Shown here piece by piece: positions 3,166 through 64,000 of a DNA stretch of 64,000 nt. Positions within the stretch are counted from its first letter, which is position 1; each line of letters starts with the position of its first letter. The position numbers and the translations under genes were made by a program. Below the pieces are notes generated by a model. It had not been told where the DNA came from. It ran no database searches and saw only the letters and a list, made by a program, of their open reading frames with translations. Source of the DNA: Eledone cirrhosa (taxonomy: Eukaryota); contig OZ024745.1 in the NCBI GenBank assembly GCA_964016885.1, forward strand, positions 90,458,001 to 90,522,000, given 5' to 3'.

Positions 3166-3180
3166 ATATATATATATATA

Positions 3181-3296: not shown

Positions 3297-3336
3297 TTGT
3301 TTCTACTTTAGGCACAAGGCCAGCAATTACCCAGTG

Positions 3337-3340
<4 letters not shown>
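3294..3340 (-). mobile_element. 3' fragment of tRNA-derived SINE with (ATT)n tail
   Basis: ttgtttctactttaggcacaaggccagcaattacccagtgcatt matches the SINE copies at 46588, 54807 and 48358 (reverse). Confidence 0.75.
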
Positions 3341-3396
<56 letters not shown>

Positions 3397-3397
<1 letters not shown>

Positions 3398-41614: not shown

Positions 41615-41865
41615 CACATATACATACGTACACACGTACATACATACTACATACATACATACATACATACATACATACATACATACATACATACATACAT
41701 ACATACATACATACATACATACTTAATACATACATACATACATACATACATACATACATGCATACATACATACATACATACATACATACATACATACATA
41801 CATACATACATACATACATACATACATACATACATACATACATGCTTAATACATACATATATACA
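41615..41865. repeat. (TACA)n microsatellite, target of family C
   Basis: Seen directly. Confidence 0.95.
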
Positions 41866-44507
41866 TGCTTAATAAAAGATTCAGACGAAACCAAACATCA
41901 GTCTATAGAGATATGAAGGGCAAAATAATAAGTGTCACTGAGGCCCCATCCCAGAAAGACATAGATTCCTTTTGGAGAAAAATATGGGGTGAAAAGAAGA
42001 ATTTCAACCAAGATGCAGTGTGGCTAAGAGAAATCCAAAAGAACTATTGCTCCTACACTACAACAAAAACATACGAAATAAGTGAGGGTACCCTTGAGAC
42101 TGTGATAGGAAAACTCCAAGATAAGAAAACACCAGGAAGAGACATGATTGTCGGCTACTGGTACAAAAAACTAATATTCAATCGGAGGTATCTTACTGAC
42201 CTCTACCAACAAGTTCTTAAGGGAGATACACTTATACCAGAATGGTTGACATTAGCACAAACGTTACTGGTCCCCAAGAACAAAGACACCCGCTTGGCAA
42301 AGAGCTACCGACCCATTGCATGCCAGAACCTGATGTATAAGATGTATACAGCCTGCCTCAACCTATTCCGCCAAGATCACTGTGAAGGTGGTAACATCAT
42401 CACAGATGAACAAGCAACTGGAAAGAAAAGGGTTTGGGGATGTGCTGAACAACTCCTAATCAACAGGGCTGCGATGTCGGGGGTGCGACAACTTAGGAGG
42501 AATATGACTACAGTCTGGCTGGACTACAAGAAAGCTTTCGATTCTGTTCCCCACTCTTGGATGATAGAGGCCCTCCAACTTGCTAAAGTCCCAGACATTA
42601 TTGTCAGAGCCACAGAGAGGCTGTCTTCTTCTTGGGCTACTATACTAAGGTTAAAGACAGAGTGGGAGGACTCTATTTTCACTGATAAAATAAAATATTG
42701 CAGGGGTATGTTTCAGGGGGACAGTCTCTCTGTGATATTGTTCATCTTGTCATTAAACCCCTTGTCCTTTCTGCTCAAGAAATGTGAGGGATACATCATT
42801 GGCTCACAGGGGGACAGAGATACGAACCTAACACATAACTTCTTTGTGGACGATCTGAAACTCTATGCCAAGAACATGGATGGGATGAACAAAAATCTTG
42901 ACCTGGTTACAACGTTCTCAAAGGATATAGGAATGGAGTTTGGCCAAGATAAATGCTCATACATGACTGTAAAGCGGGGAAAAACAACGACCCAATCTAG
43001 CAACATTGTCATCAATGGTCTAACTGTTTCACCGATATCTGGTGAGGACTGCTACAGATACCTGGGGATAGATGACAACATATCCTATAATGGTATCTGT
43101 AATAAAGAACGCGTAACCAGGGAATACTACACCCGATTAAGAAAGATCTGGTCATCGGAACTCTCTGCGCAAAACAAAACAGTGGCTCACAGTGTGTTTG
43201 CTGTGCCTGTCCTAACACCAACGTTTGGAATACTCAATTGGACGATGGACGAAGTCCGAGCGGTTGATGTTGGAACTCGAGGGGTGCTGAACAACACCGT
43301 AGGCTTCCACGTCAACAGTGACATAGACCGCCTTTACTTGAAACGTAAGCAGGGAGGCAGAGGCCTAACATCAGTCTAGACAACATTTGAATGTCGCATC
43401 ATATCTCTCCGACAACATCTACGAACTTCGAAGCGTAGGAGCCTGCTTCTCGAGCAAGTCTATCTGCATGAAACAGATAAGATCGTGAGAGTTGGGAAGG
43501 AACTCCTTGAGAGATATTCCCTGTGTGATAATCAAAAACTCACACTCAGGGATGTCGCTCAGCAGTATCGCAGTGAATCCATGGATGAAAAACTGCATGC
43601 CTATCAGCAAAAGATCATGCATGGATATGTTGCCAGGAAGCTTCAGAGTGAGAGTAATATAGATAAGGAAAGTAGTCTATCTTGGACCAACAACCGCTAT
43701 ATTGGCTCCCACTTTGAAGGATACGCTTTTGCAATCCAAGAACAGGAGATTAGCACGAAATACCTGATTCACAAAAGAGATAGGGATGCAGGCAAAACAC
43801 CTAGATGTGATAACAAGTGCAGACTCTGCAGCTGCAGACTCATCAGCAGACTCAAGTGCAGACTCATCAGCAGCTGCCCAGGGATGTCATCGCGGTACTA
43901 TCTGCCTGTGAGGCATGATGTGGTGGCCGAAACACTGTACAATGCAGTTCGTGAAAAGGATAGCCCCGATGGTAAACACATTAAAAGCTACAACAGTGTG
44001 GAAGACATCCATGTACATAATATGGGGGAGTACTGGTGGAATGTTCCAGTAAAAACCCCAATAGAATGCAGGCATAACAGACCAGATATTATGATATGGG
44101 ACAGGGAGAAGAAAACATGCACAGTAGTGGAAATTAGCTGCCCAGCAGATGCCAATATAATATCAAAGATTAGTGAAAAGGAGAATATTTATGCAGAACT
44201 GATGACAAATCTGCAGATACTCCACCCTGATTACACCTTCAGATTTATGCCTGTGATTATTGGGGCACTGGGGTATGTTAGTAACTGCCTCAATACAAAT
44301 CTTGAGAAGCTAGGCTTCACAGGAACAGAAAGAACACAACTAGTTAGGAAATTACAAGTACAATCCATTAATGGAACAGTAAAAATATGCATACATACAT
44401 ATCTACCTAGTTGATGTGTAAATTCCAATGAGAGAGTCTTGTGTCTATGTTAGAAACCGACTCTCTCTCTATTGGTAAAACTTTGTGAAATTATAAAACC
44501 AGAAGAA
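41866..44507 (+). mobile_element. R4/Dong-type RLE retrotransposon, family C, copy C1 (5'-truncated, nonsense at 43377, internal rearrangements)
   Basis: YRPIAC, WLDYKKAFDSVPH, GMFQGDSLS, FFVDDLKL, CRLC, RHD, NRPDIMIWD..VEISCP. Bounded by (TACA)n. Confidence 0.88.
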
Positions 44508-44699
44508 CATACATACACAAACACGCATATACTACTTAGCTGGTACTTATATTATCGATCATAAAAAGATGAAATGGTAAAGTAGATGCAACACAACCTA
44601 ATTTGAAAAACGATGAAACGACAAAAATTTAGATTTTAGTTGTTTCACTTTCCTGATTGTGTGAGAGAGAGAGAGAGAGAGAGGGGGGAGACAAGGCTA

Positions 44700-44880
44700 C
44701 TACGTTGAACTACAAGTACAGTCCATCTATGGGCTTCGAAACAGTTTCTGTCTACACAATTCACGCACAAGGCATTGGTTAACACTAGGCCAGGCTAAAC
44801 GACACTTACCAAAGATATCACACAGTAAAATCGAAACCGGGATCTGACGGTTGCTAAAGACATTTTTTAACCAGACGCGC
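44700..44880 (-). mobile_element. Degenerate tRNA/CORE-type SINE fragment
   Basis: acacttaccaaagatatcacacagtaaaatcgaaaccggga resembles a reversed B-box plus CORE-like segment. Confidence 0.4.
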
Positions 44881-45084
44881 GTGCGCGCGCGACGAGCTTC
44901 TGCGTAGTTTCTGTCTACCAATTTTCACCAACAGACCTTCATCAATGCAATAGGACTAAACCCAAAACCACTTGGTTTCAAAGCCTACAGTCATATATAC
45001 GATTAGACATACACACAAACATACATGCATATATATATATATATACAATATAATAAATGGAAACTATATTTATAAAACCATATT

Positions 45085-45150
45085 TATTTTATTATATATA
45101 TTTCAAGGGCAACCAAGGCAAATTATGGTGCGCTTTCATCAGATAAAATA
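45085..45150 (-). ncRNA. Hammerhead ribozyme motif (left arm of palindrome)
   Basis: Mirror of 45285-45350; TCATCAG at 45136-45142. Confidence 0.7.
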
Positions 45151-45284
45151 CAGATTGGTTTTATAAATAAATATTGACATACCCGGAAAAATGACAACCT
45201 TAACGGTTGGAGCGTCATGAAGCTCCAACCGTTAAGGTTGTCATTTTTCCGGGTATGTCAATATTTATTTATAAAACAAATCTG

Positions 45285-45350
45285 TATTTTATCTGATGAA
45301 AGCGCACCATAATTTGCCTTGGTTGCCCTTGAAATATATATAATAAAATA
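45285..45350 (+). ncRNA. Hammerhead ribozyme motif (right arm of palindrome)
   Basis: tattttat-CTGATGA-aag.gca.cca...tgg.tgc.ctt-GAAA-tatata-TA-ataaaata; 8-bp stem I and palindromic stem III. Confidence 0.72.
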
Positions 45351-45478
45351 AATATGGTTTTATAAATATAGTTTCCATTTATTATATTGTGTATTTACTC
45401 CACTAACTTGTTGAGTGCTTTATATCAGTTATAAAAATGTTTAAGCTTTTTGAATTCCAACAAATTAAATATAACCTC

Positions 45479-45523
<45 letters not shown>

Positions 45524-46585
45524 TTATTTATTTACATAAATATACATATACTCATAACTATATATATAGGTTTATTTATATATATATATAGAGAGAGAGA
45601 TATGTGCGTGTGTAAAGATATATATATATATATGTGTGTGTACATGTACAAGTTTGCGTTTACTGTGTGTTTGGGTGCGTATAAGTGTATAATTAAACTG
45701 GGAGATTCCAGATACAGTAGAAGTTAATCGCATTGTGTACTGTATTCAATATAACAAACAAAAGACGTTTGTCCCCTTTGTTATAATGTGAATTATAAAC
45801 GCTCATAATGACGGCCTGATAGCATTACTGAAAAATTGCAAAGCATGATGTGTTATGCATCGGCAAGACTAAAAGCCTTTTAAGAAACTATAAAACCTTT
45901 AAGTCAAAGGAGCCGATGACGAACTGAAATCAGCCAATAATTTGCAACAACTTGTATTAATAAGAAAGAAAACGTTGCTATGCAGTTAGCTTTCTGATAG
46001 CGTTCTTTGTAATCTGACAATCTATACTTTATGAACAAAGAACTTATAAATCCTATTGTGTGTGCCACGGATGAAATCCTGTGAAGATATGCATATAGTC
46101 AATTGAGTTACACACAAACACACACACACACGATTGGGGGTGTATTCATAATATATGTTAAAACATGTCATATTTCTAATAAAACGAGCATACCTGCAAT
46201 AATTCTACTCCCACAATGGACGACACACTGGTTTTACACATTAACAGTTCTGATATCAATCAGCTCACTGTTAAGCTGACTGTTGCTTTCCTACAGCTGC
46301 TGCACACTATATTACTTACCACAGTTACAATAACTATTTAAAAGTATTCTCAGTGAAATATTTTAATACATGATTATTTATTTCCTGAAATCACAGCTGC
46401 AAGTCTAATATTATTAAAGAAACTTATTTATAAGAAGGTCACAGAGTTAATATTGGCGTTGATTGATGCTATAAGTATATACCGTATTTCCCGGCATCGA
46501 AGATGTTCCTTTTTTTCCTTAAATAAGCCTCTAAAATCTACCATGAGTCCTGGGGGTCGAAGGTTGTTCATTATTCTCTTTCAAA

Positions 46586-46705
46586 TAATTGTTTCTACTT
46601 TTGGCACAAGGCCAGCAATTACCCAGTGCATTAGTGGTACTTTATTTTATCGACTCCGTAAGGATGAAAGGTAAAGTTAACCTCGGCGGGATTTGAACTC
46701 AGAAT
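46586..46705 (-). mobile_element. tRNA-derived SINE, partial
   Basis: Reverse-complement match to 48358-48562; B-box-like gagttcaaatccc on the minus strand. Confidence 0.75.
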
Positions 46706-47247
46706 GGCAAATGAATCAATTGTCTTTCAGTAAATATACATTTGTTATATTCCTTTTGTTTAACAATTGAGCAGATGTTATGTGTCGAAGGTACTAGTAA
46801 ATTGATGAAAGAAACACCATCATGAATTTGTAAAACTAAAGAAAGAAAAAAGTATTAGTCTCTTGACGACTATCACGGTTTTAAGACAGTTTTGGTTAAT
46901 TAAACTTCAAAAGGAAAAATCAAAGGAAACAGCAATAGTTGAAGTCTGGAATATAGATAAATCATCCTTAAATCCTGTCATCAGAAATGAACCCCCAATC
47001 GAAATCAAACAAAGTTCTACAGAAGAATGAAGAGGAAGAGTAGTTAAAGGTAGTCACAGAAGCTCCTTTTCGAGAAGAAAACCATTAGTGAAGGAAAATT
47101 TAACGGAGCCATAGTGTAATTTAACAAAATCAAAACTCTTTGTATCACACTTAAAACATAAAATATCGATGGTGATACATATTCTAGAATATGAGATTGA
47201 ATAATTAGGGATAAGAAAGTACCAGGAAGTGGTTTGATTGTTGACTA

Positions 47248-47625
47248 CTCTCGGGTCCCAAATAATAGTTGAAATAAGCGGGGGCGGGGTGGGGTGGAAA
47301 TCGGTGATCTTTCTAGATTGATTTTTTTTAAACCGTTGATTTTTTTAAAAACCAGAATTAGACGTTTAGTTTAGATATTGAGACTCGAACCCATCCTATT
47401 TATTTTATAACATATGGGCTTTCTAGTAATGTACTTTTTTGTCATGTATGTTTTTTAATCTACAAAGAAAATTAATTGTCGCAGGAATGCTACCACTTAA
47501 AATAAAATTTCACCGAAGATAGATTAGCAAAATTTAATAATCGGAGGAGGGTGGAATAAGGGCTGGTGGGAAATGGAGAAAAATTTGAAAAATGAATAAT
47601 GGGGGTATTATTCCAGACCCAAGAG
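47248..47625. mobile_element. MITE with ~20-bp imperfect TIRs and TA target duplication (Tc1/mariner/pogo-like)
   Basis: TA-ctctcgggtcccaaataata ... tattattccagacccaagag-TA; internal G-rich subterminal repeats. Confidence 0.65.
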
Positions 47626-48357
47626 TACTTGCGCAGTAAACGCACTTTCTAACATCATATCAGTCACGATAATATCCCTCTAACATTTACATCACTCTAT
47701 ATATATTATTGTATTTTCGCAGTGAAGGCTTTATCTCACATAATTATTTCACATAATATTGAATCTATGAGATTTTGATATTATTTATTTTGAGAACAAT
47801 ACTTTAACATCAGTATGAGGGGGCCGGTTATGGCCAGTTTGGAGAGAAAGAGGTGAGAGAATTCTGGCCAGATATGGTCGGTTTAAATGCTAAAGAGATA
47901 TACAAAGTTGATTGCCATTCATGGAAACAAATTTAATAACTGATTTTAAAGCCAATCTCCTGCCGAAAACTACTGACTGGTTGTATGTTAGTTTATAATG
48001 TATAAACTGTATACTGCTTGTATTAACATATTTTGGGGGCTCAGTTGTGAGACCGACAATATCGTTCAGATGATCAAGCAGCTGAAGAGAAAAAATCTGA
48101 GAATCTATTGAGATATTTGATGTTAAACCATCGTCTGGTTTAACATCACAATCTTGTCCTTGGACTTTTAGCGGAGTTCACTTTACTACAAGCATTTGGG
48201 CTATGTCTTTGCTGAAGAGAGCCAAGGCCATTGGCTTTTTTTCTGACTAAGTGATAAAAGAACACAACTCGCAACATGTGGATGTAAATATTAAAACATT
48301 TCATTTCTAAAGATGAGCTTAATATTTCAAAAGGTTTATTATCATAACCTCCAATAA

Positions 48358-48562
48358 GGTGATGGTTGGCAGAGTGTCGGACACCGTGCTTTGCAGCATA
48401 GAGTTATTGCTCTCATGTTCTCAGTTAAAATCCCGCCCGGGTTAGCTTTGCCTTTCATCCGTATGGAGTTGATAAAATAAAGCACCAGTAATGCACTGGG
48501 GTCGATTTAATCGACTTTCCCCCCCAAAAAAAATTGTTGGCCTTGTGCCTATAGTAGAAATC
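48358..48562 (+). mobile_element. tRNA-derived SINE, full-length with 20-bp target-site duplication
   Basis: tggcagagtg A-box-like and gttaaaatccc B-box-like motifs; flanking attatc(a/g)taacctccaataa at 48338-48357 and 48563-48582. Confidence 0.8.
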
Positions 48563-48926
48563 ATTATCGTAACCTCCAATAAATGTGTCACCAGTACTGG
48601 TATCAGTATTTTGTTTGCCTGGCAGAGGAGGTAGAGCTTCTTATTCTTCTTCCACTTATTTCTGTGGGGGTCGAGGGGGAAGAGTCCTCAGACTCTCCTG
48701 GAGCAGGTAGAGCGACAGAGCAAATACTTTGTAAATGTTGGTTTGAGTTCAAATCATGCCACGAAGGGGGGGGGGGGTCGAGATGATTAAATGCCAATTA
48801 AGTACTGATGTCAATGGAATCAATTCTACTTTGACCCCCCCCCCCCCACACACACACAAACACACACACATGCGTGGTATTTTACCTAAAGTAAAACTCA
48901 ATATTGGTATGTGTTTTGGGAAACTA

Positions 48927-50242
48927 CGAGGGGTGCTCAAAGGTTCCTGGCTTTGGGTAAAAGAAAATACAGGAGGATCGGTTAAAAGAAAATACAGGAG
49001 GATCGGTTAAAAGAAAATACAGGAGGATCGGTTAAAAGAAAATACAGGAGGGTCGGTTAAAAGAAAATACAGGAGGATCGGTTAAAAGAAAATACAGGAG
49101 GGTCGGTTAAAAGAAAATACAGGAGGGTCGGTTAAAAGAAAATACAGGAGGATCGGTTAAAAGAAAATACAGGAGGATCGGTTAAAAGAAAATACAGGAG
49201 GGTCGGTTAAAAGAAAATACAGGAGGGTCGGTTAAAAGAAAATACAGGAGGGTCGGTTAAAAGAAAATACAGGAGGATCGGTTAAAAGAAAATACAGGAG
49301 GATCGGTTAAAAGAAAATACAGGAGGGTCGGTTAAAAGAAAATACAGGAGGATCGGTTAAAAGAAAATACAGGAGGGTCGGTTAAAAGAAAATACAGGAG
49401 GATCTGTTAAAAGAAAATACAGGAGGATCGGTTAAAAGAAAATACAGGAGGGTCGGTTAAAAGAAAATACAGGAGGGTCGGTTAAAAGAAAATACAGGAG
49501 GGTCGGTTAAAAGAAAATACAGGAGGATCGGTTAAAAGAAAATACAGGAGGATCGGTTAAAAGAAAATACAGGAGGGTCGGTTAAAAGAAAATACAGGAG
49601 GGTCGGTTAAAAGAAAATACAGGAGGATCGGTTAAAAGAAAATACAGGAGGGTCGGTTAAAAGAAAATACAGGAGGATCGGTTAAAAGAAAATACAGGAG
49701 GATCGGTTAAAAGAAAATACAGGAGGGTCGGTTAAAAGAAAATACAGGAGGGTCGGTTAAAAGAAAATACAGGAGGGTCGGTTAAAAGAAAATACAGGAG
49801 GGTCGGTTAAAAGAAAATACAGGAGGGTCGGTTAAAAGAAAATACAGGAGGATCGGTTAAAAGAAAATACAGGAGGGTCGGTTAAAAGAAAATACAGGAG
49901 GGTCGGTTAAAAGAAAATACAGGAGGATCGGTTAAAAGAAAATACAGGAGGGTCGGTTAAAAGAAAATACAGGAGGATCTGTTAAAAGAAAATACAGGAG
50001 GATCTGTTAAAAGAAAATACAGGAGGATCTGTTAAAAGAAAATACAGGAGGATCTGTTAAAAGAAAATACAGGAGGGTTGGTTAAAAGAAAATACAGGAG
50101 GATCAGTTAATTATGATTTTATTCAACATATTCTCCTCTCAAATTCACACACTTATTGCAGCGATCCTACCTCCCATGTAAAGGTAACAGCTCTACCCCT
50201 TCACGATAGCCTTTAAGCCAGGAACTTTTCAATACTTCCACG
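48927..50242 (+). mobile_element. Tc1/mariner-type MITE with internal minisatellite, copy 2
   Basis: TA-cgaggggtgctcaaaggttcctggctt ... aagccaggaacttttcaatacttccacg-TA (imperfect TIRs, TA duplication). Confidence 0.8.
48959..50110. repeat. 25-bp minisatellite (AAAAGAAAATACAGGAGGRTCGGTT), ~46 units
   Basis: Period 25; two main variants GGATCGG/GGGTCGG, with GGATCTG near the end. Confidence 0.95.
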
Positions 50243-50509
50243 TAGATGAGATGCAAGACACCGATACAAAAACAGAGAAATTACTGAATACTAGAAACTC
50301 CCACATAATAGTAATATTGACCGTCTTTACATAACTCAAAGATTGTATTGTTTTACGAGTTTCAGTCATTGACCATCTGGAAGTACCTCCTTAGTTGAAC
50401 ATATCGAACATATCGAACATATCGACAGCAATACTTATTTCAAGGTATCTCACTTTTGTTTTCCTGTCATTACAAGACTTCAATAAATCCACTAATTTCA
50501 CAAATGTAC

Positions 50510-50562
50510 ATATCCGTACACACACTCACACACAACTACATACATACAAACACATATACATG

Positions 50563-50637
<75 letters not shown>

Positions 50638-50865
50638 ATGCATATATACACATACATATACATACATTTACATATACATATATACATATATATGTATATA
50701 TATATGTAAATGCATGCATTTGTATATGCATGTATATATGTATGTGTATATGTATATATATATATATGTATATATGTATGTATATTTATATATATATACG
50801 CACACACACACATATGTATACCCACATACACACTTATATATAGACACACACATACATGTATATAT

Positions 50866-50913
<48 letters not shown>

Positions 50914-51005
50914 GTACATACATACATATATATATATATACATACATGCATATACATACACATACATATAAACATACACATACATATTTACTTATATATA
51001 TATAT
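50510..51005. repeat. Compound (TG)n/(TA)n/(CA)n microsatellite
   Basis: Seen directly. Confidence 0.9.
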
Positions 51006-53414: not shown

Positions 53415-53476
<62 letters not shown>

Positions 53477-53775: not shown

Positions 53776-53840
<65 letters not shown>

Positions 53841-54169
53841 TATATGTAAATATGTATGTGTATGTTTATATGTATGTATATATATATATATATATATATA
53901 TTAGTGAAAGAGAAGGGAGAAAGACGATATACATAAAAAGGGAAAATATATTCAATAAAGTGTATATGTATGCAATAACTTCCCAAATGATTATAGATGT
54001 AGTGATAAGCCTGCCTTTTACAGAGCTGTTCTAAGTTTATTGCGTGTATTGTTAAAGGAAATCAATAAATCTATCAGATATGTACTAAACACCTTTGAGA
54101 ATGGCATGTGTCACCTTCTGACTCTTTCTCCTACATATTTCCTCATTAATATGCATGTGTATGTATGAA

Positions 54170-54635
54170 GGCGAAGGGCTTAGTGGTTAGAGCATTAATT
54201 AGGCTTGCAATTGAGAGGTTGCGAGTTCGATTCTCCGGCCGACTATATTTCACGTTGCTCCAGTTTACTCAGCTGTAGAAATGAATTGCGACGTCACTGG
54301 TGCCAAGTTGTATTGGCCTTTGTCTTTCCCTTGTACAACATCTTTTATAGTATATATGAAGTATATATAGTGTATATATAGTATATATACGGTTTATATA
54401 TAGTGTATAGTGTCTATATAATTTATATATGGTGTATACATGAGTTGCGACATAACTGGTGCCAAGCTGTGTCGGCCTTTCTCTTTCCCTTGGAAAACAT
54501 CGGTAGCGTGGAGAGGCGAGGCTGGTATGTATGGGCGACTACTGGTCTTCCACAAACAACCTTGCTCGGACTTGAGTCTCGGAGGGAAACTTTCTAGGTG
54601 CAAAACTATGGTCATTAGTGACAGAGGGGGGCCTT
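54170..54635 (+). mobile_element. tRNA-derived SINE (second family) interrupted by a TA-rich insert with a ~60-bp internal duplication
   Basis: A box tagtggttagagc and B box gagttcgattc; ttgcgac..actggtgccaag..ggcctt..tttcccttg..aacatc occurs twice (54283-54342, 54441-54501). Confidence 0.7.
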
Positions 54636-54806
54636 TAAATGCATGTACGTGTGGCGGTGGGGAGGCTATGTGAACATGTGTATGTGTGTGTGCGCGTGTG
54701 TGTATGTGTTTTATTTTTTCATCTCTCTTTGTATGTGTGTATAATTTGTGGTTAGTGTGTGCATTATATCTTCAGCAACGATTTTATATCCTGTTCCGCT
54801 TCAACA

Positions 54807-54980
54807 TAATTGTTTCTACTTTTGGCACAAGGCCAGCAATTATTCCAGTGTATTACTGGTACTTTATTTTATGTCGATAAAATAAAGTACCAGTAATACA
54901 CTGGGCAAAGTTAACCTCGGCGGGATTTGAACTCAGACCATAAAGGGCCGTAACTCTTTGCTGCAAAGCATGGTGTCCGC
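54807..54980 (-). mobile_element. tRNA-derived SINE with internal fold-back
   Basis: Matches 46586-46705 except that the middle is replaced by a 28-bp inverted copy. Confidence 0.75.
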
Positions 54981-55479
54981 TTCAACGTAATGGCAAGTGA
55001 CTACATCATATGGGGCGGCGTTGATAACAAAAAAGTCCTTGATAGTTACACATCACATACACTGACATTCACATACACATACGCACACATATATTTATCC
55101 ACCTTTACATAAAGACACACACACACACACAGGCAGAGCCACATACTCTAACATAAACAGTAACACACAGTAATAGGTAAAAAGATATGTGGATATATAG
55201 CAGGGGTAACTAAATAGGTGAATGCCTTCCGTTTTAAGCTCACAAAGTGTATATTTTAAATCTAAAATGACCCTCGTTCACACATTATTATGTGAGGAGT
55301 AATTGCAGTGAAAGACAGTTATTTTTATGTTCAACGTTCAAACATTGTTATACACACAATACATTCTATTGAAATAAGATGTCCTGAGGTTATAAAGAAT
55401 GGAGAGAAACGCTAAGGATTTATAGCAGAATTTAAATTTAAAAAGTAAACAGTTTCGACATTGTGTGTGTATAATGTAT

Positions 55480-55485
55480 GCATGC

Positions 55486-55522
<37 letters not shown>

Positions 55523-55561
55523 ATATGTGCATGCATACATATACACACAAAATGTCGAAAA

Positions 55562-55623
<62 letters not shown>

Positions 55624-55665
55624 TTATACACACACATATATATATATATATACACATATATATAC

Positions 55666-55728
<63 letters not shown>

Positions 55729-55729
55729 C

Positions 55730-55797
<68 letters not shown>

Positions 55798-55910
55798 GTA
55801 TGTATATATATAAATATATATATATATATGCATGTATATGCATGTATATGAATTCATAACATACATATAATCATACATACATATTCACACACACATAAAC
55901 ATACACACAT
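55480..55910. repeat. (TA)n-rich microsatellite
   Basis: Seen directly. Confidence 0.95.
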
Positions 55911-56188
55911 ACATTCATAATACTTAATGCCATAACAGTCTTGTTTTAAAACTAGATTTTACTACAGAATATATTGATTTTACCTGACAATGTATATATA
56001 TAGATGAGTATAAATACTCCATCACTAACTACGATTTGTCCCTGGACAAAAACGCATAGGTAATTGACTAATTAAACAAGCTGGTAAGAATGCACATATA
56101 AGCAAATCGGTTGAATATTTGGGATACACACACACACACACGCATACACACACACATACATACATACATACATACATACATACATACA

Positions 56189-56220
<32 letters not shown>

Positions 56221-56221
<1 letters not shown>

Positions 56222-56671
56222 GGCGGCTGCCAACTCGTTTTCGAGTACGGCCACTACTTTATATCCATGTAGGAGAACCCCTACCGAAGCGCTGAACAAG
56301 TGTGACTTTTTAGTCCAGCCAGCGACTTGAAAACTCTGGTACAAACACTACACTTGTGACAATTATTGACACATAGTGCTGGGCCCATGGTACCATGTGA
56401 TGACAAGTGCAGAGGGATCTCCAGATACAAAGCAATGCCTGTGCCGTGAAGCTTTTATAGTGAGCAAAGGCACTGCGCAAAGCCACTCCCACTCTCTTAA
56501 TCAAGATGATATTTACCGAAAAGAAGAACAAGTCAACATCATTGGATACCATCAGGGTTGCAGGTGTTATATCAGAGTTTTCCTTCTCCTAGAATTCTGC
56601 CTTGACAAAGACTAAGGGGTCATCTCTCCCGGTGATTTTGGATGGCCATTGACTTAAGAGCTCCTTTGCCC

Positions 56672-56673
<2 letters not shown>
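56221..56673 (-). mobile_element. Non-autonomous RTE-like element D, copy D1 (5'-truncated), (TGTA)n tail
   Basis: Near-identical to 60361-60815; terminal hairpin next to the repeat. Confidence 0.7.
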
Positions 56674-56702
<29 letters not shown>

Positions 56703-56762
56703 CATACATACATACATACATACATACATACATACATACGTACATACATACATACATACATA

Positions 56763-58234
56763 CTCTGCGCAAAACAAAACAGTGGCTCACGATGTGTTTG
56801 CTGTCCCTGTCCTAACACCAACGTTTGGAATACTCAATTGGACGATAGACGAAATCCGAGCAGTTGATGTTGGAACTCGAAAAATACTGAACAACACCGG
56901 AAACTTCCACATCAACAGTGACATAGACTGCCTTTACTTGAAACGTAAGCAGGGAGGCAGAGGCCTAACATCAGTCCAGACAACATTTGAATGTCGCATC
57001 ATATCTCTCCGACAACATCTACGAACCTCGAAGCGTAGGAGCCCGTTTCTCGAGCAAGTCTATCTGCATGAAACAGATAAGATCAAGAGAGTTGGGAAGG
57101 AACTCCTTGAGAGATATTCCCTGTGTGATAATCAAAAGCTCACACCCAGGGATGTCGCTCAGCAGTATGGCAGTGAATCCATGGATGAAAAACTGCATGC
57201 CTATCAGCAAAAAGTCATGCATGGATATGTTGCCAGGAAGCTCCTGAGTGTGAGTAATATAGATAAGGAAAGTAGTCTATCTTGGACCAACAACCGCTAT
57301 ATTGGCTCCCACTTTGAAGGATACGCTTTTGCAATCCAAGAACAGGAGATTAGCACGAAATACCTGATTCACAAAAGAGATAGGGATGCAGGCAAAACAC
57401 CTAGATGTGATAACAAGTGCAGACTCTGCAGAACTAACATCGAGGATATCACCCATGTCATCAGCAGCTGCCCAGGGATGTCATCGCGGTACTATCTGCC
57501 TGTGAGGCATGATCTGGTGGCCAAAACACTGTACAATGCAGTTCGTGAAAAGGATAGCCCCGATGGTAAACACATTAAAAGCTACAACAGTGTGGAAGAC
57601 ATCCATGTACATAATATGGGGGAGTACTGGTGGAATGTTCCAGTAAAAACCCCAATAGAATGCAGGCATAACAGACCAGATATTATGATATGGGACAGGG
57701 AGAAGAAAACATGCACAGTAGTGGAAATTAGCTGCCCAGCAGATGCCAATATAATATCAAAGATTAGTGAAAAGGAGAATATTTATGCAGAACTGATGAG
57801 AAATCTGCAGATACTCCACCCTGATTACACCTTCAGATTTATGCCTGTGATTGTTGGGGCACTGGGATATGTTAGTAACTGCCTCAATACAAATCTTGAG
57901 AAGCTAGGCTTCACAGGAACAGAAAGAACACAACTAGTTAGGAAATTACAAGTACAATCCATTAATGGAACAGTAAAAATGTGTAAAACATACAAAAAAT
58001 TTTGCATCTAATAACTGCATATATACATGTACAGATACAAAGCATATACACATGCACACATACAACTCAAAACATCCACATCCACACATACAATAACATC
58101 ATATCTACACATGCATGCATACATATCTACCTAGTTGATGTGTAAATTCCAATGAGAGAGTCTTCTGTCTATGTTAGAAAACCGACTCTCTCTCTCTATT
58201 GGTAAAACTTTGTGAAATTATAAAACCAGAAGAA
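56763..58234 (+). mobile_element. Family C copy C2 (5'-truncated; open ORF 56782-58011 with CCHC and RLE)
   Basis: CRLCRTNIEDITHVISSC, RHD, RPD; complete 3' UTR; (TACA)n flanks. Confidence 0.9.
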
Positions 58235-58318
58235 CATACATACATACATACATACATACATACATACATACATACATACATACATACATACATACATACA
58301 TACATACATACATACATA

Positions 58319-58665
58319 ATGCCTCAGTACAAATTTTGAAAAGCTGGGCTTCACAGAAACAGAAAGAACACGACTAGTTAGGAAATTACAAGGACAGTCT
58401 ATTAATGGAACAGTAAAATCTAATAACTGCATATACACATGTACAGATACAAAGCATATACACATGCACACATATAACTCAAAACATACACATCCACACA
58501 TGCAATAACATCCATATCTACACATGCATGCTTGCAGTCATGCAGACATGCAGATATATCTACCTAGTTGATGTTGTGTAAATTCCAATGAGAGCGTCTT
58601 GTGTCTATGTTAGAAACCGACTCTCTCTCAATTGGAAACAATTTGTAAAATTATAAAATCAGAAG
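58319..58665 (+). mobile_element. Family C copy C3 (short 3' fragment)
   Basis: Matches the last codons and 3' UTR of C2; (TACA)n flanks. Confidence 0.85.
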
Positions 58666-58752
58666 TACATACATACATACATACATACATACATACATAC
58701 ATACATACATACATACATACATACATACATACATACATACATACATACATAC

Positions 58753-60342
58753 TGTTTCACCGAAATCTGATGAAGACTGCTACAAATACCTGGAGATAGA
58801 TGAGAACATATCCTATAATCGCATCTGTAATAAAGAACGCGTAACCAGGGAATTCTACACCCGATTAAGAAAGATCTGGTCATCGGAACTCTTTGCGCAA
58901 AACAAAACAGTGGCTCACAATGTGTTTGCTGTCCCTGTCCTAACACCAACGTTTGGAATACTCAATTGGACGATAGGCGAAATCCGAGCAGTTGATGTTG
59001 GAACTCGGAAAATACTGAACCACACCGGAAACTTCCACATCAACAGTGACATAGACCGCCTTTACTTGAAACGTAAGCAGGGAGGCAGAGGCCTAACATC
59101 AGTCCAGACAACATTTGAATGTCGCATCATATCTCTCCGACAACATCTACGAACCTCGAAACGTAGGAGCCCACTTCTCGAGCAAGTCTATCTGCATGAA
59201 ACAGATAAGATCATGAGAGTTGGGAAGGAACTCCTTGAGAGATATTCCCTGTGTGATAATCAAAAACTCACACCCAGTGATGTCGCTCAGCAGTATGGCA
59301 GTGAATCCATGGATGAAAAACTGCATGCCTATCAGCAAAAAGTCATGCATGGATATGTTGCCAGGATACTCCAAAGTGAGAGTAATATAGATAAGGAAAG
59401 TAGTCTATCTTGGACCAACAACCGCTATATTGGCTCCCACTTTGAAGGATACGCTTTTGCAATCCAGGAACAGGAGATTAGCACGAAATACCTGATTCAT
59501 AAAAGCGATAGGGATGCAGGCAAAACACCTAGATGTGATAACAAGTGCAGACTCTGCAGAACTAACATCGAGGATATCTCCTATGTCATAAGCAGCTGTC
59601 TAAAGATGTCATCGCGGTACTATCTACCTATGAGGCATGATGTAGTGGCCAAAAACTGTACAATGCAGTTCGTAAAAAATATAGCCCCGATAATAAACAC
59701 ATTAAAAGCTACAACAATGTGGAAGACATCCATGTACATAATATGAAAGAGTACTGGTGGAATGTTCCAGTAAAAGCCCAATAAAATGCAGGCATAACAG
59801 ACCAGATATTATGATATGGGACAGGGAGAAGAAAACATGCACAGTAGTGGAAATTAGCTGCCCAGCAGATGCCAATATAATATCAAAGATTAGTGAAAAG
59901 GAGAATATTTATGCAGAACTGATGAGAAATCTGCAGAACCTGTGATTATTGGGGCACTGGGATATGTTAGTAACTGCTGCAATAAAATTCTTGAGAAGCT
60001 AGGCTTCACAGGAACAGAAAGAACACAACTAGTTAAGAAATTACAAGTACAATCCATTAATGGAACAGTAAAAATATGTAAAACATTCCAAAAATTGTGC
60101 ATCTAATAACTGCATATACACATGTACAGATACAAAGCATATACACATGCACACATCCAACTCAAAACATACACATCCACACATACAATAACATCCATAT
60201 CTACACATGCATGCATGCAGACATACATACATATCTACCTAGTTGATGTGTAAATTCCAATGAGAGAGTCTTGTGTCTATGTTAGAAAACCGACTCTCTC
60301 TCTCTATTGGTAAAACTTTGTGAAATTATAAAACCAGAAGAA
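58753..60342 (+). mobile_element. Family C copy C4 (5'-truncated, frameshifted)
   Basis: ORFs 58910-59746 and 59757-59945; same 3' end; (TACA)n flanks. Confidence 0.9.
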
Positions 60343-60360
60343 CATACATACATACATACA

Positions 60361-60957
60361 TGGTGGCTGCCAACTCGTTTTCGAGTACGGCCACTACTTT
60401 ATATCCATGTAGGAGAACCCCTACCGATGCGCTGAACGAGTGTGACTTTTTAGTCCAGCCAGCGACTTGAAAACTCTGGTACAAACACTACACTTGTGAC
60501 AATTACTGACACATAGTGCTGGGCCCATGGTACCATGTGACGACAAGTGCAGAGAGATCTCCAGATATAAAGCAATGCCTGTGCCGTGAAGCTTTTATAG
60601 TGAGCAAAGGCACTGCACAAAGCCAGTCCCACTCTCTTAACCAAGATGATATTTACCAAAAAGAAGAACAAGTCAACATCATTGGATACCATCAGGGTTG
60701 CAGGTGTTATATCAGAGTTTTCCTTCTCCTAGAATTCTGCCTTGACAAAGGCTAAGGGGTCATCTCTCCCGGTGATTTTGGATGGCCATTGACTCTTAAG
60801 AGCTCCTTTGCCCTTTGACAGGTTTTGTTTTTAGTCCTGCAGGATGTCCAAAGTCACCCTCCTCACCAAGAAACCTTGGTGGGGTTGCCAGTTTAGTCGC
60901 CAACGACCCGACCATGGGACAGGTTGTACTGGGATACATGTTACCAGTAGCACCAAT
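60361..60957 (-). mobile_element. Non-autonomous RTE-like element D, copy D2 (longest, ~600 bp)
   Basis: Minus strand carries CTAGGAGAAGGAAAACTCTGA (RTE 5'-UTR-like motif), a C2H2-like remnant [16 protein letters not shown], a 3' hairpin and a (TGTA)n tail. No RT. Confidence 0.65.
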
Positions 60958-61405
60958 ACATATATATATATACATATATATATACATATATATATATGTA
61001 CATACATATACATGTACATACATACATATACACATATACATACATATATATATATATATAAATACATACATATATATATATAAATACATATATATATATA
61101 TACATACATACATATACATACATATATACATACATATACATACACACATACATATATACATACATACACACACATATATACATACATACATACACATACA
61201 TATATACACATACATATATATACATACATACATACACATACATATATATACATACATACATACACATACATATATATACATACATACATACACATACATA
61301 TATACACATACTTACATATATATACATACATACACATACATATATATATATACATATATATATATATACATACATACATATATACACATACATATATATA
61401 TATAC

Positions 61406-61440
<35 letters not shown>

Positions 61441-61577
61441 CATACATACATATATATATACATACATACATATATATATACATATATATATATATACATA
61501 CATACATATATATATACATACATACATATATATATACATACATATACATATACATACATACACATATATATATATAC

Positions 61578-61608
<31 letters not shown>

Positions 61609-61693
61609 CATACATACATATACATATATACATATATATATATACACATACATACATATATATATATACATATATATATATATACATACATAC

Positions 61694-61750
<57 letters not shown>

Positions 61751-61826
61751 CATATATATATATACATATATATATATACATACATATATATATATACATA
61801 TATATATATACATACATATATATATA

Positions 61827-61858
<32 letters not shown>

Positions 61859-61894
61859 CATATACACACATACATATATATATATATATACACA

Positions 61895-61934
<40 letters not shown>

Positions 61935-62019
61935 CATATACATATATATACATACATATACATATATATATATACATACATACATATATATATATACATA
62001 TATATATATACATACATAC

Positions 62020-62052
<33 letters not shown>

Positions 62053-62057
62053 CATAC

Positions 62058-62088
<31 letters not shown>

Positions 62089-62093
62089 CATAC

Positions 62094-62126
<33 letters not shown>

Positions 62127-62292
62127 CATACATACATATATATATACATATATACATATATATATACATATATACATACATATATATATATACATATATA
62201 CACATACACATATATATACATATATATATATATATATACATACATACATACATATATATATATATATACATACATACATATATATATATACA
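60958..62292. repeat. 1.3-kb compound (TA)n/(TACA)n microsatellite
   Basis: Seen directly. Confidence 0.95.
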
Positions 62293-62750
62293 TGGTGGCT
62301 GCCAACTCGTTTTCGAGTACGGCCACTACTTTACATCCATGTAGGATAACCCCTACCGAAGCGCTGAACGAGTGTGACTTTTTAGTCCAGCCAGCGACTT
62401 GAAACCTCTGGTACAAACACTACACCTGTGACAATTATTGACACATAGTGCTAGGCCCATGGTAGGACAATTATTGACACATAGTGCTGGGCCCATGTGA
62501 GGACAAGTGCAGAGAGATCTCCAGATATAAAGCAATGCCTGTGCCGTGAAGCTTTTATAGTGAGCAAAGGCACTGCACAAAGCCACTCCCACTCTCTTAA
62601 CCAAGATGCTATTTACCAAAAAGAAGAACAAGTCAACATCATTGGATACCATCAGGGTTGCAGGTGTTATATCAGAGTTTTCCTTCTCCTAGAATTCTGC
62701 CTTGACTAAGGCTAAAGGGGTCATCTCTCCCGGTGATTTTGGATGGCCAT
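62293..62750 (-). mobile_element. Element D copy D3 (5'-truncated, small internal duplication)
   Basis: gacaattattgacacatagtgct.ggcccatg is duplicated at 62430-62497. Confidence 0.7.
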
Positions 62751-62940
62751 ATACATACATACATATATACACACACATACATACACATACATATATATAT
62801 ATATACACATACATACATACATACATATATATATATATATACATACATACATACATATATACATATATATACATACACACATATATATATATATACATAC
62901 ATATATATATATATACATACATATATATATATATACATAC

Positions 62941-62993
<53 letters not shown>

Positions 62994-62998
62994 CATAC

Positions 62999-63065
<67 letters not shown>

Positions 63066-63102
63066 CACATACATATATATATACATACATACATATATAT
63101 AC

Positions 63103-63153
<51 letters not shown>

Positions 63154-63156
63154 CAC

Positions 63157-63237
<81 letters not shown>

Positions 63238-63470
63238 CACATATATATATACATATATATATATATATACATACATATATATACATATATACATATACAT
63301 ATATATATATACATATATATATATACATATATATATATACATATATATATATATACATATATATATATACATATATATATATACATATATATATATACAT
63401 ATATATATATACATATATATATATACATACATACATACATACATACATACATACATACATACATACATAC
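62751..63470. repeat. Compound (TA)n/(TACA)n microsatellite
   Basis: Seen directly. Confidence 0.95.
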
Positions 63471-64000
63471 TGTTTCACCGAAATCTGATGAGGACTGCTA
63501 CAAATACCTGGAGATAGATGAGAACATATCCTATAATGGCATCTGTAATAAAGAACGCGTAACCAGGGAATTCTACACCCGATTAAGAAAGATCTGGTCA
63601 TCGGAACTCTCTGCGCAAAACAAAACAGTGGCTCACAGTGTGTTTGCTGTGCCTATCCTAACACCAACGTTTGGAATACTCAATTGGACGACAGACGAAC
63701 TCCGAGCAGTTGATGTTGGAACTCCAAAAATACTGAACAACACCGGAAACTTCCACATCAACAGTGACATAGACCGCCTTTACTTGAAACGTAAGCAGGG
63801 AGGCAGTGGCCTAACATCAGTCCAGACAACATTTGAATGTCGCATCATATCTCTCCGACAACATCTACGAACCTCGAAGCGTAGGAGCCCGTTTCTCGAG
63901 CAAGTCTATCTGCATGAAACAGATAAGATCATGAGAGTTGGGAAGGAACTCCTCGCGAGATATTCGCTATGTGATAATCAAAAACTCACACCCAGGGAAA
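63471..64000 (+). mobile_element. Family C copy C5 (5'-truncated, runs off the window)
   Basis: Same start and sequence as C4. Confidence 0.88.

What the first reader, a model, noticed from the sequence alone, without database searches (positions are those of the whole stretch)
41615..64000. Dong-like family C appears specific for a tetranucleotide (TACA)n repeat
All five copies begin within (TACA)n on the same strand, and the four whose 3' ends are in the window end ...cagaag(aa)/catacata. None is in TAA, and A/B never occur in TACA. I know R4-clade targets as rDNA (R4) and TAA (Dong); I am not aware of a described TACA-specific member. Three related RLE families partitioning two microsatellite types in one genome would be a natural system for studying endonuclease retargeting.
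Basis: partly seen in the sequence, partly recalled or inferred. Interest (0 to 1): 0.75.

Follow-up and report, generated by a model that had tools for sequence, protein, structure and literature searches.

The report
Retrotransposon family targeting TACA microsatellites
A family of jumping genes resembling the silkworm element Dong lies, always in the same orientation, inside (TACA)n simple repeats throughout this genome, while its cousins here lie only in (TAA)n; this likely reflects a switched insertion target and gives a natural case for studying how such elements choose their sites.

Summary
The window has five family C copies (C1-C5), all on the + strand and each preceded by (TACA)n. 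The four 3' ends in view read ...CAGAAG(AA) followed by CATACATA.

Genome-wide counts:
- C 3' ends followed by (TACA)n: 29 of 30.
- Visible 5'-truncated C junctions preceded by (TACA)n: 16 of 20.
- Full-length C 5' ends preceded by (TACA)n: 30 of 30.
- C copies flanked by (TAA)n: 0 of 30.
- Families A and B: (TAA)n in 59 of 60, (TACA)n in 0 of 60.

So (TACA)n is a target, not merely a tail.

C is about 4.1 kb with one ORF. It encodes an N-terminal three-helix Myb/SANT-like domain (predicted), a reverse transcriptase, a CCHC motif and a PD-(D/E)-K restriction-like endonuclease.

New here:
- A second (TACA)n family, E, is 46% identical to C in protein.
- A roughly 608-bp non-coding element, D, occupies the same arrays on the opposite strand.
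- C's closest metagenomic relatives are flanked by (TACT)n.
- In a tree, a 100/100 branch separates this tetranucleotide group from the (TAA)n-flanked group.

Limits: no named R4/Dong reference could be placed in the tree. Repbase and Dfam could not be searched. Waldo, an unrelated APE-type clade, already targets (ACAY)n.

Verdict: a new target variant of a known kind.

The parts
41620..41866 (+). (TACA)n array, 5' flank of copy C1
   Evidence: TRF period 4, 62.5 copies; sequence read
41862..44507 (+). Family C copy C1. It is 5'-truncated and runs from RT to CCHC/RLE. It carries a stop at 43377-43379, a tandem duplication in the CCHC region (43816-43870) and a 116-nt 3' deletion relative to C2. 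It ends ...CCAGAAGAA and is followed by only about 12 nt of CATACATACACA.
   Evidence: Translation; Pfam RVT_1 E 1.9e-23; BLAST against C2
56124..56218 (+). (TACA)n array
56222..56673 (-). Element D, copy 1. D is non-coding and about 608 bp when full length. Its sense strand is the minus strand. The constant 3' end abuts the array at 56218-56222 and the copy is 5'-truncated at 56673.
   Evidence: BLAST of D against 313 kb of held sequence: 44 hits with a constant left end and variable right end
56673..56763 (+). (TACA)n array, 5' flank of C2
56764..58235 (+). Family C copy C2. It is 5'-truncated with an open frame through the CCHC and PD..E..K motifs and ends ...CCAGAAGAA.
   Evidence: alignment A5
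58234..58318 (+). (ACAT)n array between C2 and C3
58319..58665 (+). Family C copy C3, a short and more diverged 3' fragment that ends ...TCAGAAG
58666..58752 (+). (TACA)n array, 5' flank of C4
58753..60341 (+). Family C copy C4, 5'-truncated at the same point as C5, with frameshifts
60342..60361 (+). (ACAT)5, shared 3' flank of C4 and of D copy 2
60362..60955 (-). Element D, copy 2 (nearly full length)
60956..62290 (+). Degenerate (ATAC/ATAT)n array
62294..62750 (-). Element D, copy 3
62749..63469 (+). Degenerate (ATAT/ATAC)n array ending in a pure (TACA)n run, 5' flank of C5
63471..64000 (+). Family C copy C5, 5'-truncated, running off the window

Best explanation
Family C is a roughly 4.1-kb single-ORF non-LTR retrotransposon (reverse transcriptase followed by CCHC and restriction-like endonuclease motifs) whose copies lie in one orientation inside (TACA)n microsatellites across the genome; it likely gets there by sequence-specific nicking of the TGTA strand followed by target-primed reverse transcription.

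Shown:
- The anatomy of the element.
- (TACA)n on both sides of truncated and full-length copies.
- A fixed strand and a fixed 3' register.
- Complete separation from the (TAA)n-specific families A and B in the same genome.
- A second (TACA)n family, E.
- A well-supported tetranucleotide clade that also holds (TACT)n-flanked relatives from metagenomic contigs.

Inferred:
- The protein likely reads the repeat through its N-terminal three-helix Myb/SANT-like domain together with the CCHC/RLE module.
- It would nick the bottom strand at one phase of the repeat, next to the G that pairs with the C of the first CATA.
- Reverse transcription would be primed on the RNA 3' end ...CAGAAGAA. That RNA may carry read-through CAUA units able to pair with the primer.
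- The top strand would then be cut, and the 5' end joined with a few extra bases or after premature termination, giving the many 5'-truncated copies.

Because each insertion splits an array into two arrays that are still targets, arrays fill up head to tail. The stretch at 56.1-64.0 kb of the window shows this.
For: Window: 5 of 5 copies are preceded by (TACA)n on the + strand.

Own genome, 30 loci per query:
- C 3' ends followed by at least 8 nt of (TACA)n within 40 nt: 29 of 30. Followed by (TAA)n: 0 of 30. Opposite-strand TGTA: 1 of 30. Control windows 900 nt further on: 2 of 30.
- The 3' register ...CAGA(A/G)G + AACATAC appears in 25 of 28 copies.
- 5' junctions: 16 of 20 visible have (TACA)n, at truncation points spread over positions 2623-3985 of 4086. 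Ten more copies ran off the locus edge.
- Full-length 5' ends: 30 of 30. These come from 40 scored copies that are 99-100% identical in the 5' UTR.
- A: 29 of 30 (TAA)n, 0 of 30 (TACA)n. B: 30 of 30 (TAA)n, 0 of 30 (TACA)n.
- E: 28 of 30 3' ends and 20 of 27 visible 5' junctions in (TACA)n.

Unselected arrays: 18 (TACA)>=10 arrays were taken from the first 6.7 Mb of one contig. Fifteen have C, E or D beside them. In all 15, C and E sense is on the TACA strand and D sense is on the TGTA strand.

Anatomy:
- Full-length ends were defined in L062 and L064.
- Pfam RVT_1.
- Invariant C..C..H..C and N-x-P-D ... (D/E) ... K columns across both lineages, intact in window copy C2.
- The N-terminal domain aligns across both lineages with W12, G34, R38, W43, L58 and Q61 invariant.
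- Its model has three helices, pLDDT 77.8.
- The best structural matches are Myb/SANT-type DNA-binding domains: GT-1, ISWI SANT, ARR1, Zeste, TRF, DMAP1 and c-Myb, at Z 4.6-5.7.

Tree: {C, E, L065, L066, L067, L068} is split from 16 other rows by a 100/100 branch. Those 16 include A, B and the (AAT)n-flanked contigs.
Against: - Four of 20 truncated 5' junctions (L003, L004, L006, L023) and 1 of 30 3' flanks (L004) lack a clear (TACA)n. These look like later rearrangements or insertions but were not resolved.
- No empty allele was seen, so insertion into a pre-existing array is inferred from flanks alone.
- Fifteen of 18 arrays carry one of these elements. Many arrays may therefore have been seeded or extended by the elements' own tails, in which case 'target' and 'tail' feed each other.
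- Nicking, priming and the role of the N-terminal domain are untested.
- The structural matches are weak (Z below 6; Foldseek found nothing at E <= 0.001).
- No named R4/Dong reference was in the tree.
- C copies in the window are 92.7-96.2% alike and broken. Activity of C today is not shown.
Confidence: 0.88

Rival explanations
1. (ACAT)n is only a 3' tail that the element carries or makes, as some LINEs end in short tandem repeats. Insertion sites are otherwise arbitrary, and the 5' (TACA)n in the window is just the tail of the copy upstream.
For: Every copy has (ACAT)n at its 3' end, and some flanks are only 2-3 units long, as for C1, L004 and L013. In the window the copies sit head to tail. 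Two of 30 full-length 5' flanks show another C 3' end within 60 nt.
Against: Sixteen of 20 truncated and 30 of 30 full-length 5' junctions lie in (TACA)n. In most of these no other C copy lies upstream in the 1.5-kb flank, for example L010, L019, L025 and L026. No target-site duplications of unique sequence were seen.
Confidence: 0.03
2. The association is passive. Copies and arrays were co-amplified by segmental or tandem duplication, or elements survive preferentially in repeat-rich, low-recombination DNA, without any sequence-specific insertion.
For: C4 and C5 share one truncation point and may be a duplication. Waldo-A/B of Drosophila are reported near CA repeats, probably through passive accumulation (PMC3812793, passage read).
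Against: The junctions lie on many chromosomes with 20 different truncation points. Strand polarity relative to the repeat is kept in 29 of 30 copies and in 15 of 15 arrays. The 3' register is fixed. Families A and B in the same genome never share these arrays.
Confidence: 0.04
3. The target reading is right, but C is not a member of the R4/Dong clade. It belongs to another RLE clade, HERO or NeSL-related such as Togen, some of whose families also target microsatellites.
For: No named reference was in the tree. HERO families with microsatellite targets and (TG)n-specific Togen exist (PMC4640811, passages read). C is only 30-31% identical to A and B.
Against: C aligns with the (TAA)n-specific A and B end to end over 874-964 residues, including the N-terminal domain and the CCHC/RLE region. 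PDB R2 proteins match only in the RT. C has no N-terminal zinc fingers and has the N-terminal Myb/SANT-like domain reported for R4/Dong (PMC7998251, passages read). Octopus repeat annotations list abundant Dong-R4 LINEs (PMC13282606, PMC8967140, passages read).
Confidence: 0.12
4. The family and its (ACAT)n target are already recorded in Repbase or Dfam, or in a paper outside the searchable library, so nothing here is new.
For: Cephalopod 'Dong-R4' consensus libraries exist. Repbase Reports often record target repeats in a line of text that is not indexed in the library searched here.
Against: Seven full-text searches found no RLE or R4/Dong family with an ACAT/TACA target. A 2013 review and a 2021 paper give only rDNA and (TAA)n for R4/Dong.
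Confidence: 0.3

Closest known systems
Dong (Bombyx mori and relatives in insects, molluscs, cnidarians; R4 clade, RLE-type)
   Same: [quoted passage not shown] Both insert in one orientation into a microsatellite, are often 5'-truncated, and pile up head to tail. Families A and B of this window behave exactly like Dong with (TAA)n.
   Different: The target is the tetranucleotide (TACA)n rather than (TAA)n. C is only 30-31% identical to the (TAA)n families here and lies across a 100/100 branch from them. The tetranucleotide lineage has its own conserved basic stretch (RRNRDY) ahead of the N-terminal domain.
Waldo (WaldoAg1/2, WaldoFs1; R1 clade, APE-type)
   Same: Waldo targets (ACAY)n, which includes (ACAT)n = (TACA)n (PMC3812793, passage read).
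   Different: Waldo belongs to an unrelated clade with an N-terminal APE endonuclease. C has a C-terminal RLE, and Pfam finds no APE domain in it. The similarity in target is convergent.
R4 (Ascaris and other nematodes; R4 clade)
   Same: Same protein architecture, including the N-terminal Myb-like domain according to PMC7998251.
   Different: R4 inserts into 28S rDNA, not into a microsatellite.
Togen (fish, NeSL-related) and microsatellite-specific HERO families
   Same: These are RLE-type LINEs with microsatellite targets, (TG)n for Togen (PMC4640811, passages read).
   Different: They belong to different clades and target different repeats. Their relationship to C was not tested here.
R2 (28S rDNA; solved structures 8gh6, 9dou, 9nl3)
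   Same: R2 is the mechanistic model for RLE elements: N-terminal DNA-binding domains, RT, CCHC and RLE, with bottom-strand nicking followed by target-primed reverse transcription.
   Different: Sequence similarity to C is confined to the RT (E 1e-23 to 1e-12). R2 has N-terminal zinc fingers and targets rDNA.

Membership tests
R4/Dong clade of RLE non-LTR retrotransposons | Single ORF with a reverse transcriptase domain | tested here: met
   Pfam RVT_1 at E 1.9e-23 (C1) and 8.7e-24 (P0001). The frame is open for 1066 aa in L063. In the full-length copy L064 the ORF begins at 3150 and is interrupted by a stop after 4439, so its open part is 430 aa.
R4/Dong clade of RLE non-LTR retrotransposons | CCHC motif and PD-(D/E)-K restriction-like endonuclease C-terminal to the RT | tested here: met
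   Alignment A5 of 10 sequences from both lineages has invariant C45, C48, H57, C62, N129, D132, P151, D153, K159, K163 and Y167, with an acidic residue (E in C, D in the others) in the strand between. The motif names are recalled knowledge. No Pfam model matched this region.
R4/Dong clade of RLE non-LTR retrotransposons | No N-terminal zinc fingers; diverged N-terminal Myb/SANT-like domain (PMC7998251) | tested here: inconclusive
   The N-terminal domain is alignable between C, the (TACT)n relatives and the (TAA)n elements. The AF2 model has three helices at pLDDT 77.8. VIA-align top rows are mostly Myb/SANT domains, including DMAP1, but at Z only 4.6-5.7. Foldseek, Pfam and a PDB profile search were silent.
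R4/Dong clade of RLE non-LTR retrotransposons | RT phylogeny groups it with the named references R4, Dong and Rex6 | not testable with these tools
   No named reference sequence could be obtained. Homology searches returned unnamed proteins. As a proxy, C is sister to a clade of (AAT)n-flanked elements.
Dong (in the narrow sense) | Insertion into (TAA)n | tested here: not met
   0 of 30 C copies and 0 of 30 E copies are flanked by (TAA)n. 29 of 30 C copies and 28 of 30 E copies are flanked by (TACA)n.
Waldo / R1 clade | N-terminal apurinic/apyrimidinic-type endonuclease; two ORFs | tested here: not met
   Pfam finds only RVT_1 in the N-terminal 430 aa and in the 1066-aa ORF. The endonuclease motifs are C-terminal.

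The most novel reading that the evidence does not exclude
An undescribed sublineage of Dong-like RLE retrotransposons has moved from trinucleotide to tetranucleotide microsatellites. Within it, close relatives differ in target by a single base of the repeat unit: (TACA)n for C and E in this genome, (TACT)n for the nearest metagenomic relatives, which are about 49% identical to C in protein. In this genome the (TACA)n arrays form a shared niche. Two autonomous families occupy one strand, and a very abundant 608-bp non-autonomous element of unknown partner occupies the other. That would give matched natural pairs for mapping which residues of the N-terminal Myb-like domain and the RLE set target choice.
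Probability: 0.5. Interest if true: 0.7.

Novelty: new variant of a known kind. Interest (0 to 1): 0.6.

Why it matters
How RLE-type LINEs choose their sites is a live question, because R2 relatives are being developed as site-specific gene-insertion tools.

This genome holds four related, abundant families. Two read (TAA)n and two read (TACA)n, with no cross-occupancy in 120 sampled copies. The nearest outside relatives read (TACT)n.

That amounts to a natural series of retargeted enzymes with simple, synthesisable DNA targets. Sequence comparison and domain swaps between them could locate the specificity determinants.

It also shows that a large share of one microsatellite class in a 3-Gb genome is bound up with retroelements: 15 of 18 sampled (TACA)n arrays carry one. 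This bears on how such arrays arise and on how they should be annotated.

Tried and rejected
- Ribozyme or other known RNA at the 5' end or in the 3' UTR of C: Rfam at E <= 1 gave only sub-threshold microsatellite-like miRNA hits.
- 3' UTR folds of C, D and E: modest z-scores of -1.9 to -2.5; not pursued.
- DNA search of the own genome with element D returned nothing. The tool skips very common words, so this is not evidence of rarity.
- Autonomous partner of D: a motif scan of about 600 kb of held own-genome loci found only spurious frames through microsatellites.
- Pfam on the N-terminal regions of 7 elements at E <= 10: nothing meaningful.
- PDB profile search with the N-terminal alignment: nothing below E 0.38.
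- Foldseek against PDB: no match at E <= 0.001.
- Named Dong/R4 references: searches with C and with A returned unnamed proteins. The only organism names were Argonauta hians and Euphydryas editha.
- Sequencing runs: no RNA holder listed.
- Contigs of four runs laid on a full-length 5' junction: the tool skipped the repeat part (1462-1501), so nothing was learned about flanks in other organisms. Contigs from runs under three other organism labels do cover the 5' UTR at 90% identity or more (797, 13 and 1 contigs). The second read-laying run was not used.
- Monophyly of the two (TACA)n families: the free tree interleaves TACA and TACT, but a tree holding C and E together is not rejected (p-AU 0.074). 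The number of TACA/TACT switches is therefore open at one or two.
- Earlier findings of this scan: three look-ups returned nothing.
- Paper PMC3124438 (passages read) only lists microsatellite counts and is irrelevant.

Full report
WHAT IS IN THE WINDOW

The window is G000:C5:90458001-90522000 of a 3.0-Gb eukaryotic assembly. The only named close homologue comes from the cephalopod Argonauta hians.

Exact TACATACATACA occurs 154 times, always on the + strand and only from 41648 onward. Shuffles give a mean of 0.02. Tandem Repeats Finder puts pure arrays at 41620-41866, 56124-56218, 56673-56763, 58234-58318, 58666-58752 and 60342-60361. Degenerate ATAC/ATAT arrays lie at 60956-62290 and 62749-63469.

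Reading the sequence and BLAST give five family C copies on the + strand:
- C1, about 41862-44507
- C2, 56764-58235
- C3, 58319-58665
- C4, 58753-60341
- C5, 63471 to the window end

Each is directly preceded by (TACA)n. The four visible 3' ends read ...AAA(C/T)CAGAAG(AA) followed by CATACATA.

C1 carries an in-frame stop at 43377-43379, a short tandem duplication inside its CCHC region and a 116-nt 3' deletion relative to C2. C4 and C5 share a truncation point and are 96.2% identical. That is no closer than other pairs (92.7-96.2%), so they may or may not be one event.

TARGET OR TAIL?

I sampled the host genome with the last 106 nt of C. This gave 272 first-look candidates, 40 scored and 30 loci with 1.5-kb flanks.

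- 3' flank: within 40 nt downstream of the 3' end, 29 of 30 copies have at least 8 nt of (TACA)n. None has (TAA)n and 1 has the opposite-strand repeat. Control windows 900 nt further on score 2 of 30.
- Register: 25 of 28 copies read ...CAGA(A/G)G + AACATAC.
- Truncated 5' junctions: 20 of the 30 copies end within the locus, at 20 different truncation points between positions 2623 and 3985 of a 4086-nt reference. Sixteen of these 20 have (TACA)n within 40 nt upstream. The other ten ran off the locus edge.
- The four exceptions are L003, L004, L006 and L023. They sit next to an inverted copy, another repeat or an inserted sequence, and were not resolved further.

Long copies gave the full-length element. 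In L064 and L062 it starts with ...CAGTCAACGCGATCAG directly after (TACA)n. An ATG lies about 205 nt further in, and the whole element is about 4.1 kb.

A search with the first 140 nt of the 5' UTR gave 1423 first-look candidates. The 40 scored were 99-100% identical. All 30 fetched loci have (TACA)n immediately upstream, with a few variable bases at the joint.

(TACA)n is a target.

PARTITION WITH FAMILIES A AND B

In the window, every A or B 3' end abuts (AAT)n, and the next copy starts right after it. Genome-wide, with 30 loci each:

| Family | 3' flank (TAA)n | 3' flank (TACA)n |
|---|---|---|
| A | 29 of 30 | 0 of 30 |
| B | 30 of 30 | 0 of 30 |
| C | 0 of 30 | 29 of 30 |
| E | 0 of 30 | 28 of 30 |

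A and B copies are 94-100% identical to the query, with most B copies at 99%. They look young.

(a) A second (TACA)n family, E. It lies just downstream of C in L064/L145 and is 46% identical to C over 717 aa. It ends ...TTAAGAGAGA plus a variable GA-rich stretch, then ACATACAT. In a sample of 30 copies, 28 of 30 3' flanks and 20 of 27 visible 5' junctions are (TACA)n.

(b) Element D. It appears in the window at 56222-56673, 60362-60955 and 62294-62750.
- It has a constant end abutting (ACAT)n on the + strand and a variable other end.
- It is therefore a 5'-truncating retroelement whose sense strand is the minus strand.
- It is about 608 bp when full length, has no ORF, and is flanked by the repeat on both sides.
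- It is so common that the genome DNA search skipped its words.
- No autonomous partner was found.

(c) Occupancy of unselected arrays. The exact (TACA)10 pattern has 160,082 + 161,661 overlapping matches in the genome. I took 18 arrays from the first 6.7 Mb of one contig. Fifteen have C, E or D within 1.5-2 kb: C beside 6, E beside at least 4, D beside at least 11. In all 15, C and E sense is on the TACA strand and D sense is on the TGTA strand. The (TACA)n arrays of this genome are thus a shared, strand-polarised niche.

RELATIVES ELSEWHERE

The best database proteins are only about 51% identical to C.

A scan of public metagenome contigs confirmed 285 relatives and kept 80. All 80 were screened for an ORF of at least 550 aa, and 18 passed. 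Their flanks:
- The three nearest to C that show a repeat are flanked by (TACT)n on the element's sense strand: L066 on both sides, L065 at the 5' side, L068 at the 3' side.
- Ten of the 18 have (AAT)n downstream: L069, L071, L074, L076-L080, L083 and L103. So do L073 and L081, which were inspected only.
- L072 has (CT)n and L089 has (AT)n.
- L067, L084 and L087 show none.

A careful maximum-likelihood tree used 22 rows and 933 columns.
- A 100/100 branch splits {C, E, L065, L066, L067, L068} from the other 16 rows, which include A and B.
- One change separates tri- from tetranucleotide targets.
- Within the tetranucleotide clade, C is sister to L066 (98/98) and E lies outside C + L065 + L066 (100/97).
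- A tree with C and E held together is not rejected (p-AU 0.074), so the number of TACA/TACT switches is one or two.
- The tree is unrooted and holds no named reference.

PROTEIN ANATOMY AND LIKELY MECHANISM

Pfam finds only RVT_1.

The C-terminal 240 residues align across both lineages. Invariant columns are C, C, H, C (a CCHC knuckle), R-H, W, N-x-P-D, an acidic residue in the next strand, P-x-D, and K ... E-K ... Y. I read this, from recalled knowledge of R2-type elements, as a PD-(D/E)-K restriction-like endonuclease. It is intact in window copy C2.

The N-terminal 80 residues form a domain that aligns between C, the (TACT)n relatives and the (TAA)n elements. W12, G34, R38, W43, L58 and Q61 are invariant. 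In the C lineage it follows a conserved basic RRNRDY stretch.

AlphaFold2 gives three helices at pLDDT 77.8. Foldseek finds nothing significant. The VIA-align list is headed by Myb/SANT-type DNA-binding domains: GT-1, ISWI SANT, ARR1, Zeste, TRF, Cdc5, DMAP1 and c-Myb. Their Z scores are only 4.6-5.7, which the tool warns can reflect a common helical arrangement. This agrees with, but does not independently prove, the published assignment of a diverged Myb/SANT-like domain to R4/Dong elements (PMC7998251, passages read).

From these parts, and by analogy with R2, I infer the following sequence of events. The protein binds the repeat and nicks the TGTA strand at one register. It primes on the RNA 3' end ...CAGAAGAA, cuts the top strand and joins the 5' end. 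None of these steps was tested.

COMPARISON WITH WHAT IS KNOWN

A 2013 review lists the microsatellite-targeting LINEs as Waldo (ACAY), Mino (AC), Kibi (TC), Koshi (TTC) and Dong (TAA) (PMC3812793, passages read). An ACAT-type target is therefore known, but in the APE-type R1 clade. C has no APE domain and has a C-terminal RLE.

For RLE elements the papers I could read give the following:
- rDNA and (TAA)n for R4/Dong (PMC7998251)
- (TG)n for Togen and unspecified microsatellites for some HERO families (PMC4640811, passages read)

Two cephalopod repeat papers report abundant and recently active 'Dong-R4' LINEs. The passages found for the words Dong-R4 and microsatellite say nothing about their insertion sites (PMC13282606, PMC8967140).

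Seven full-text searches found no RLE or R4/Dong family with a TACA/ACAT target. Repbase, Repbase Reports and Dfam are not searchable here, and paper supplements were not read. An existing database entry cannot be excluded; I put it at about 0.3.

VERDICT

C is a new target variant of the Dong-type, RLE-encoding, microsatellite-specific retrotransposons. It belongs to a tetranucleotide-targeting lineage that also holds E and the (TACT)n-flanked relatives.

Still open:
- Formal clade membership against named references.
- Prior description in repeat databases.
- Current activity of C.
- The biochemical basis of target choice.
- The partner of element D.

Noticed in passing
L064:7075 to L145:488 (G000:C13 about 30548575-30551888): Family E is a second (TACA)n-specific family of the same lineage, 46% identical to C in protein. 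It has a variable GA-rich 3' tail before the repeat. 28 of 30 3' flanks and 20 of 27 visible 5' junctions lie in (TACA)n.
   Followed up: yes
window 56222-56673, 60362-60955, 62294-62750 (minus strand): Element D is about 608 bp, non-coding, 5'-truncating and very abundant. It is flanked on both sides by the same microsatellite but always in the orientation opposite to C and E. A 3' stem-loop lies just before the tail. A variant with a related 3' end also occurs. Its autonomous partner is unknown.
   Followed up: partly
L065, L066, L068 (public metagenome contigs): The nearest relatives of C (37-46% tblastn identity) are flanked by (TACT)n on the sense strand. This unit differs from TACA by one base. 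L066 is a complete 4.7-kb element with the repeat on both sides.
   Followed up: partly
L072, L089, L092 (public metagenome contigs): Relatives in the (TAA)n-side clade are followed by other repeats: (CT)n, (AT)n and (AAC)n/(AGC)n. This hints at still more target switches. Each is a single contig and was not checked further.
   Followed up: no
window 3340-27489; loci L176-L235: Families A and B, the (TAA)n-specific ones, are 94-100% identical to the window copies over their last 127-128 nt. Most B copies are at 99%, so both look recently active. The 5' UTR of C is likewise 99-100% identical in the 40 scored copies.
   Followed up: partly
window 38882-40131 and 48958-50110: Two roughly 1.2-kb arrays of a 25-bp satellite lie in inverted orientation to each other on either side of the C1 region.
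   Followed up: no
window about 45060-45375: A near-perfect inverted repeat of about 300 bp (foldback- or MITE-like) is visible in the sequence read.
   Followed up: no
window 27773-30613 (minus strand): A G+C-rich stretch (0.57) holds frameshifted ORFs with RVT_1 (E 1.3e-25) and zf-RVT (E 8e-9). It is another, unrelated-looking retroelement between the A/B cluster and the rest of the window.
   Followed up: partly
L150: One E copy has (AAT)n and a family B 3' end at its 5' side and (ACAT)n at its 3' side. This may be a junction between the two niches or a rearrangement.
   Followed up: no
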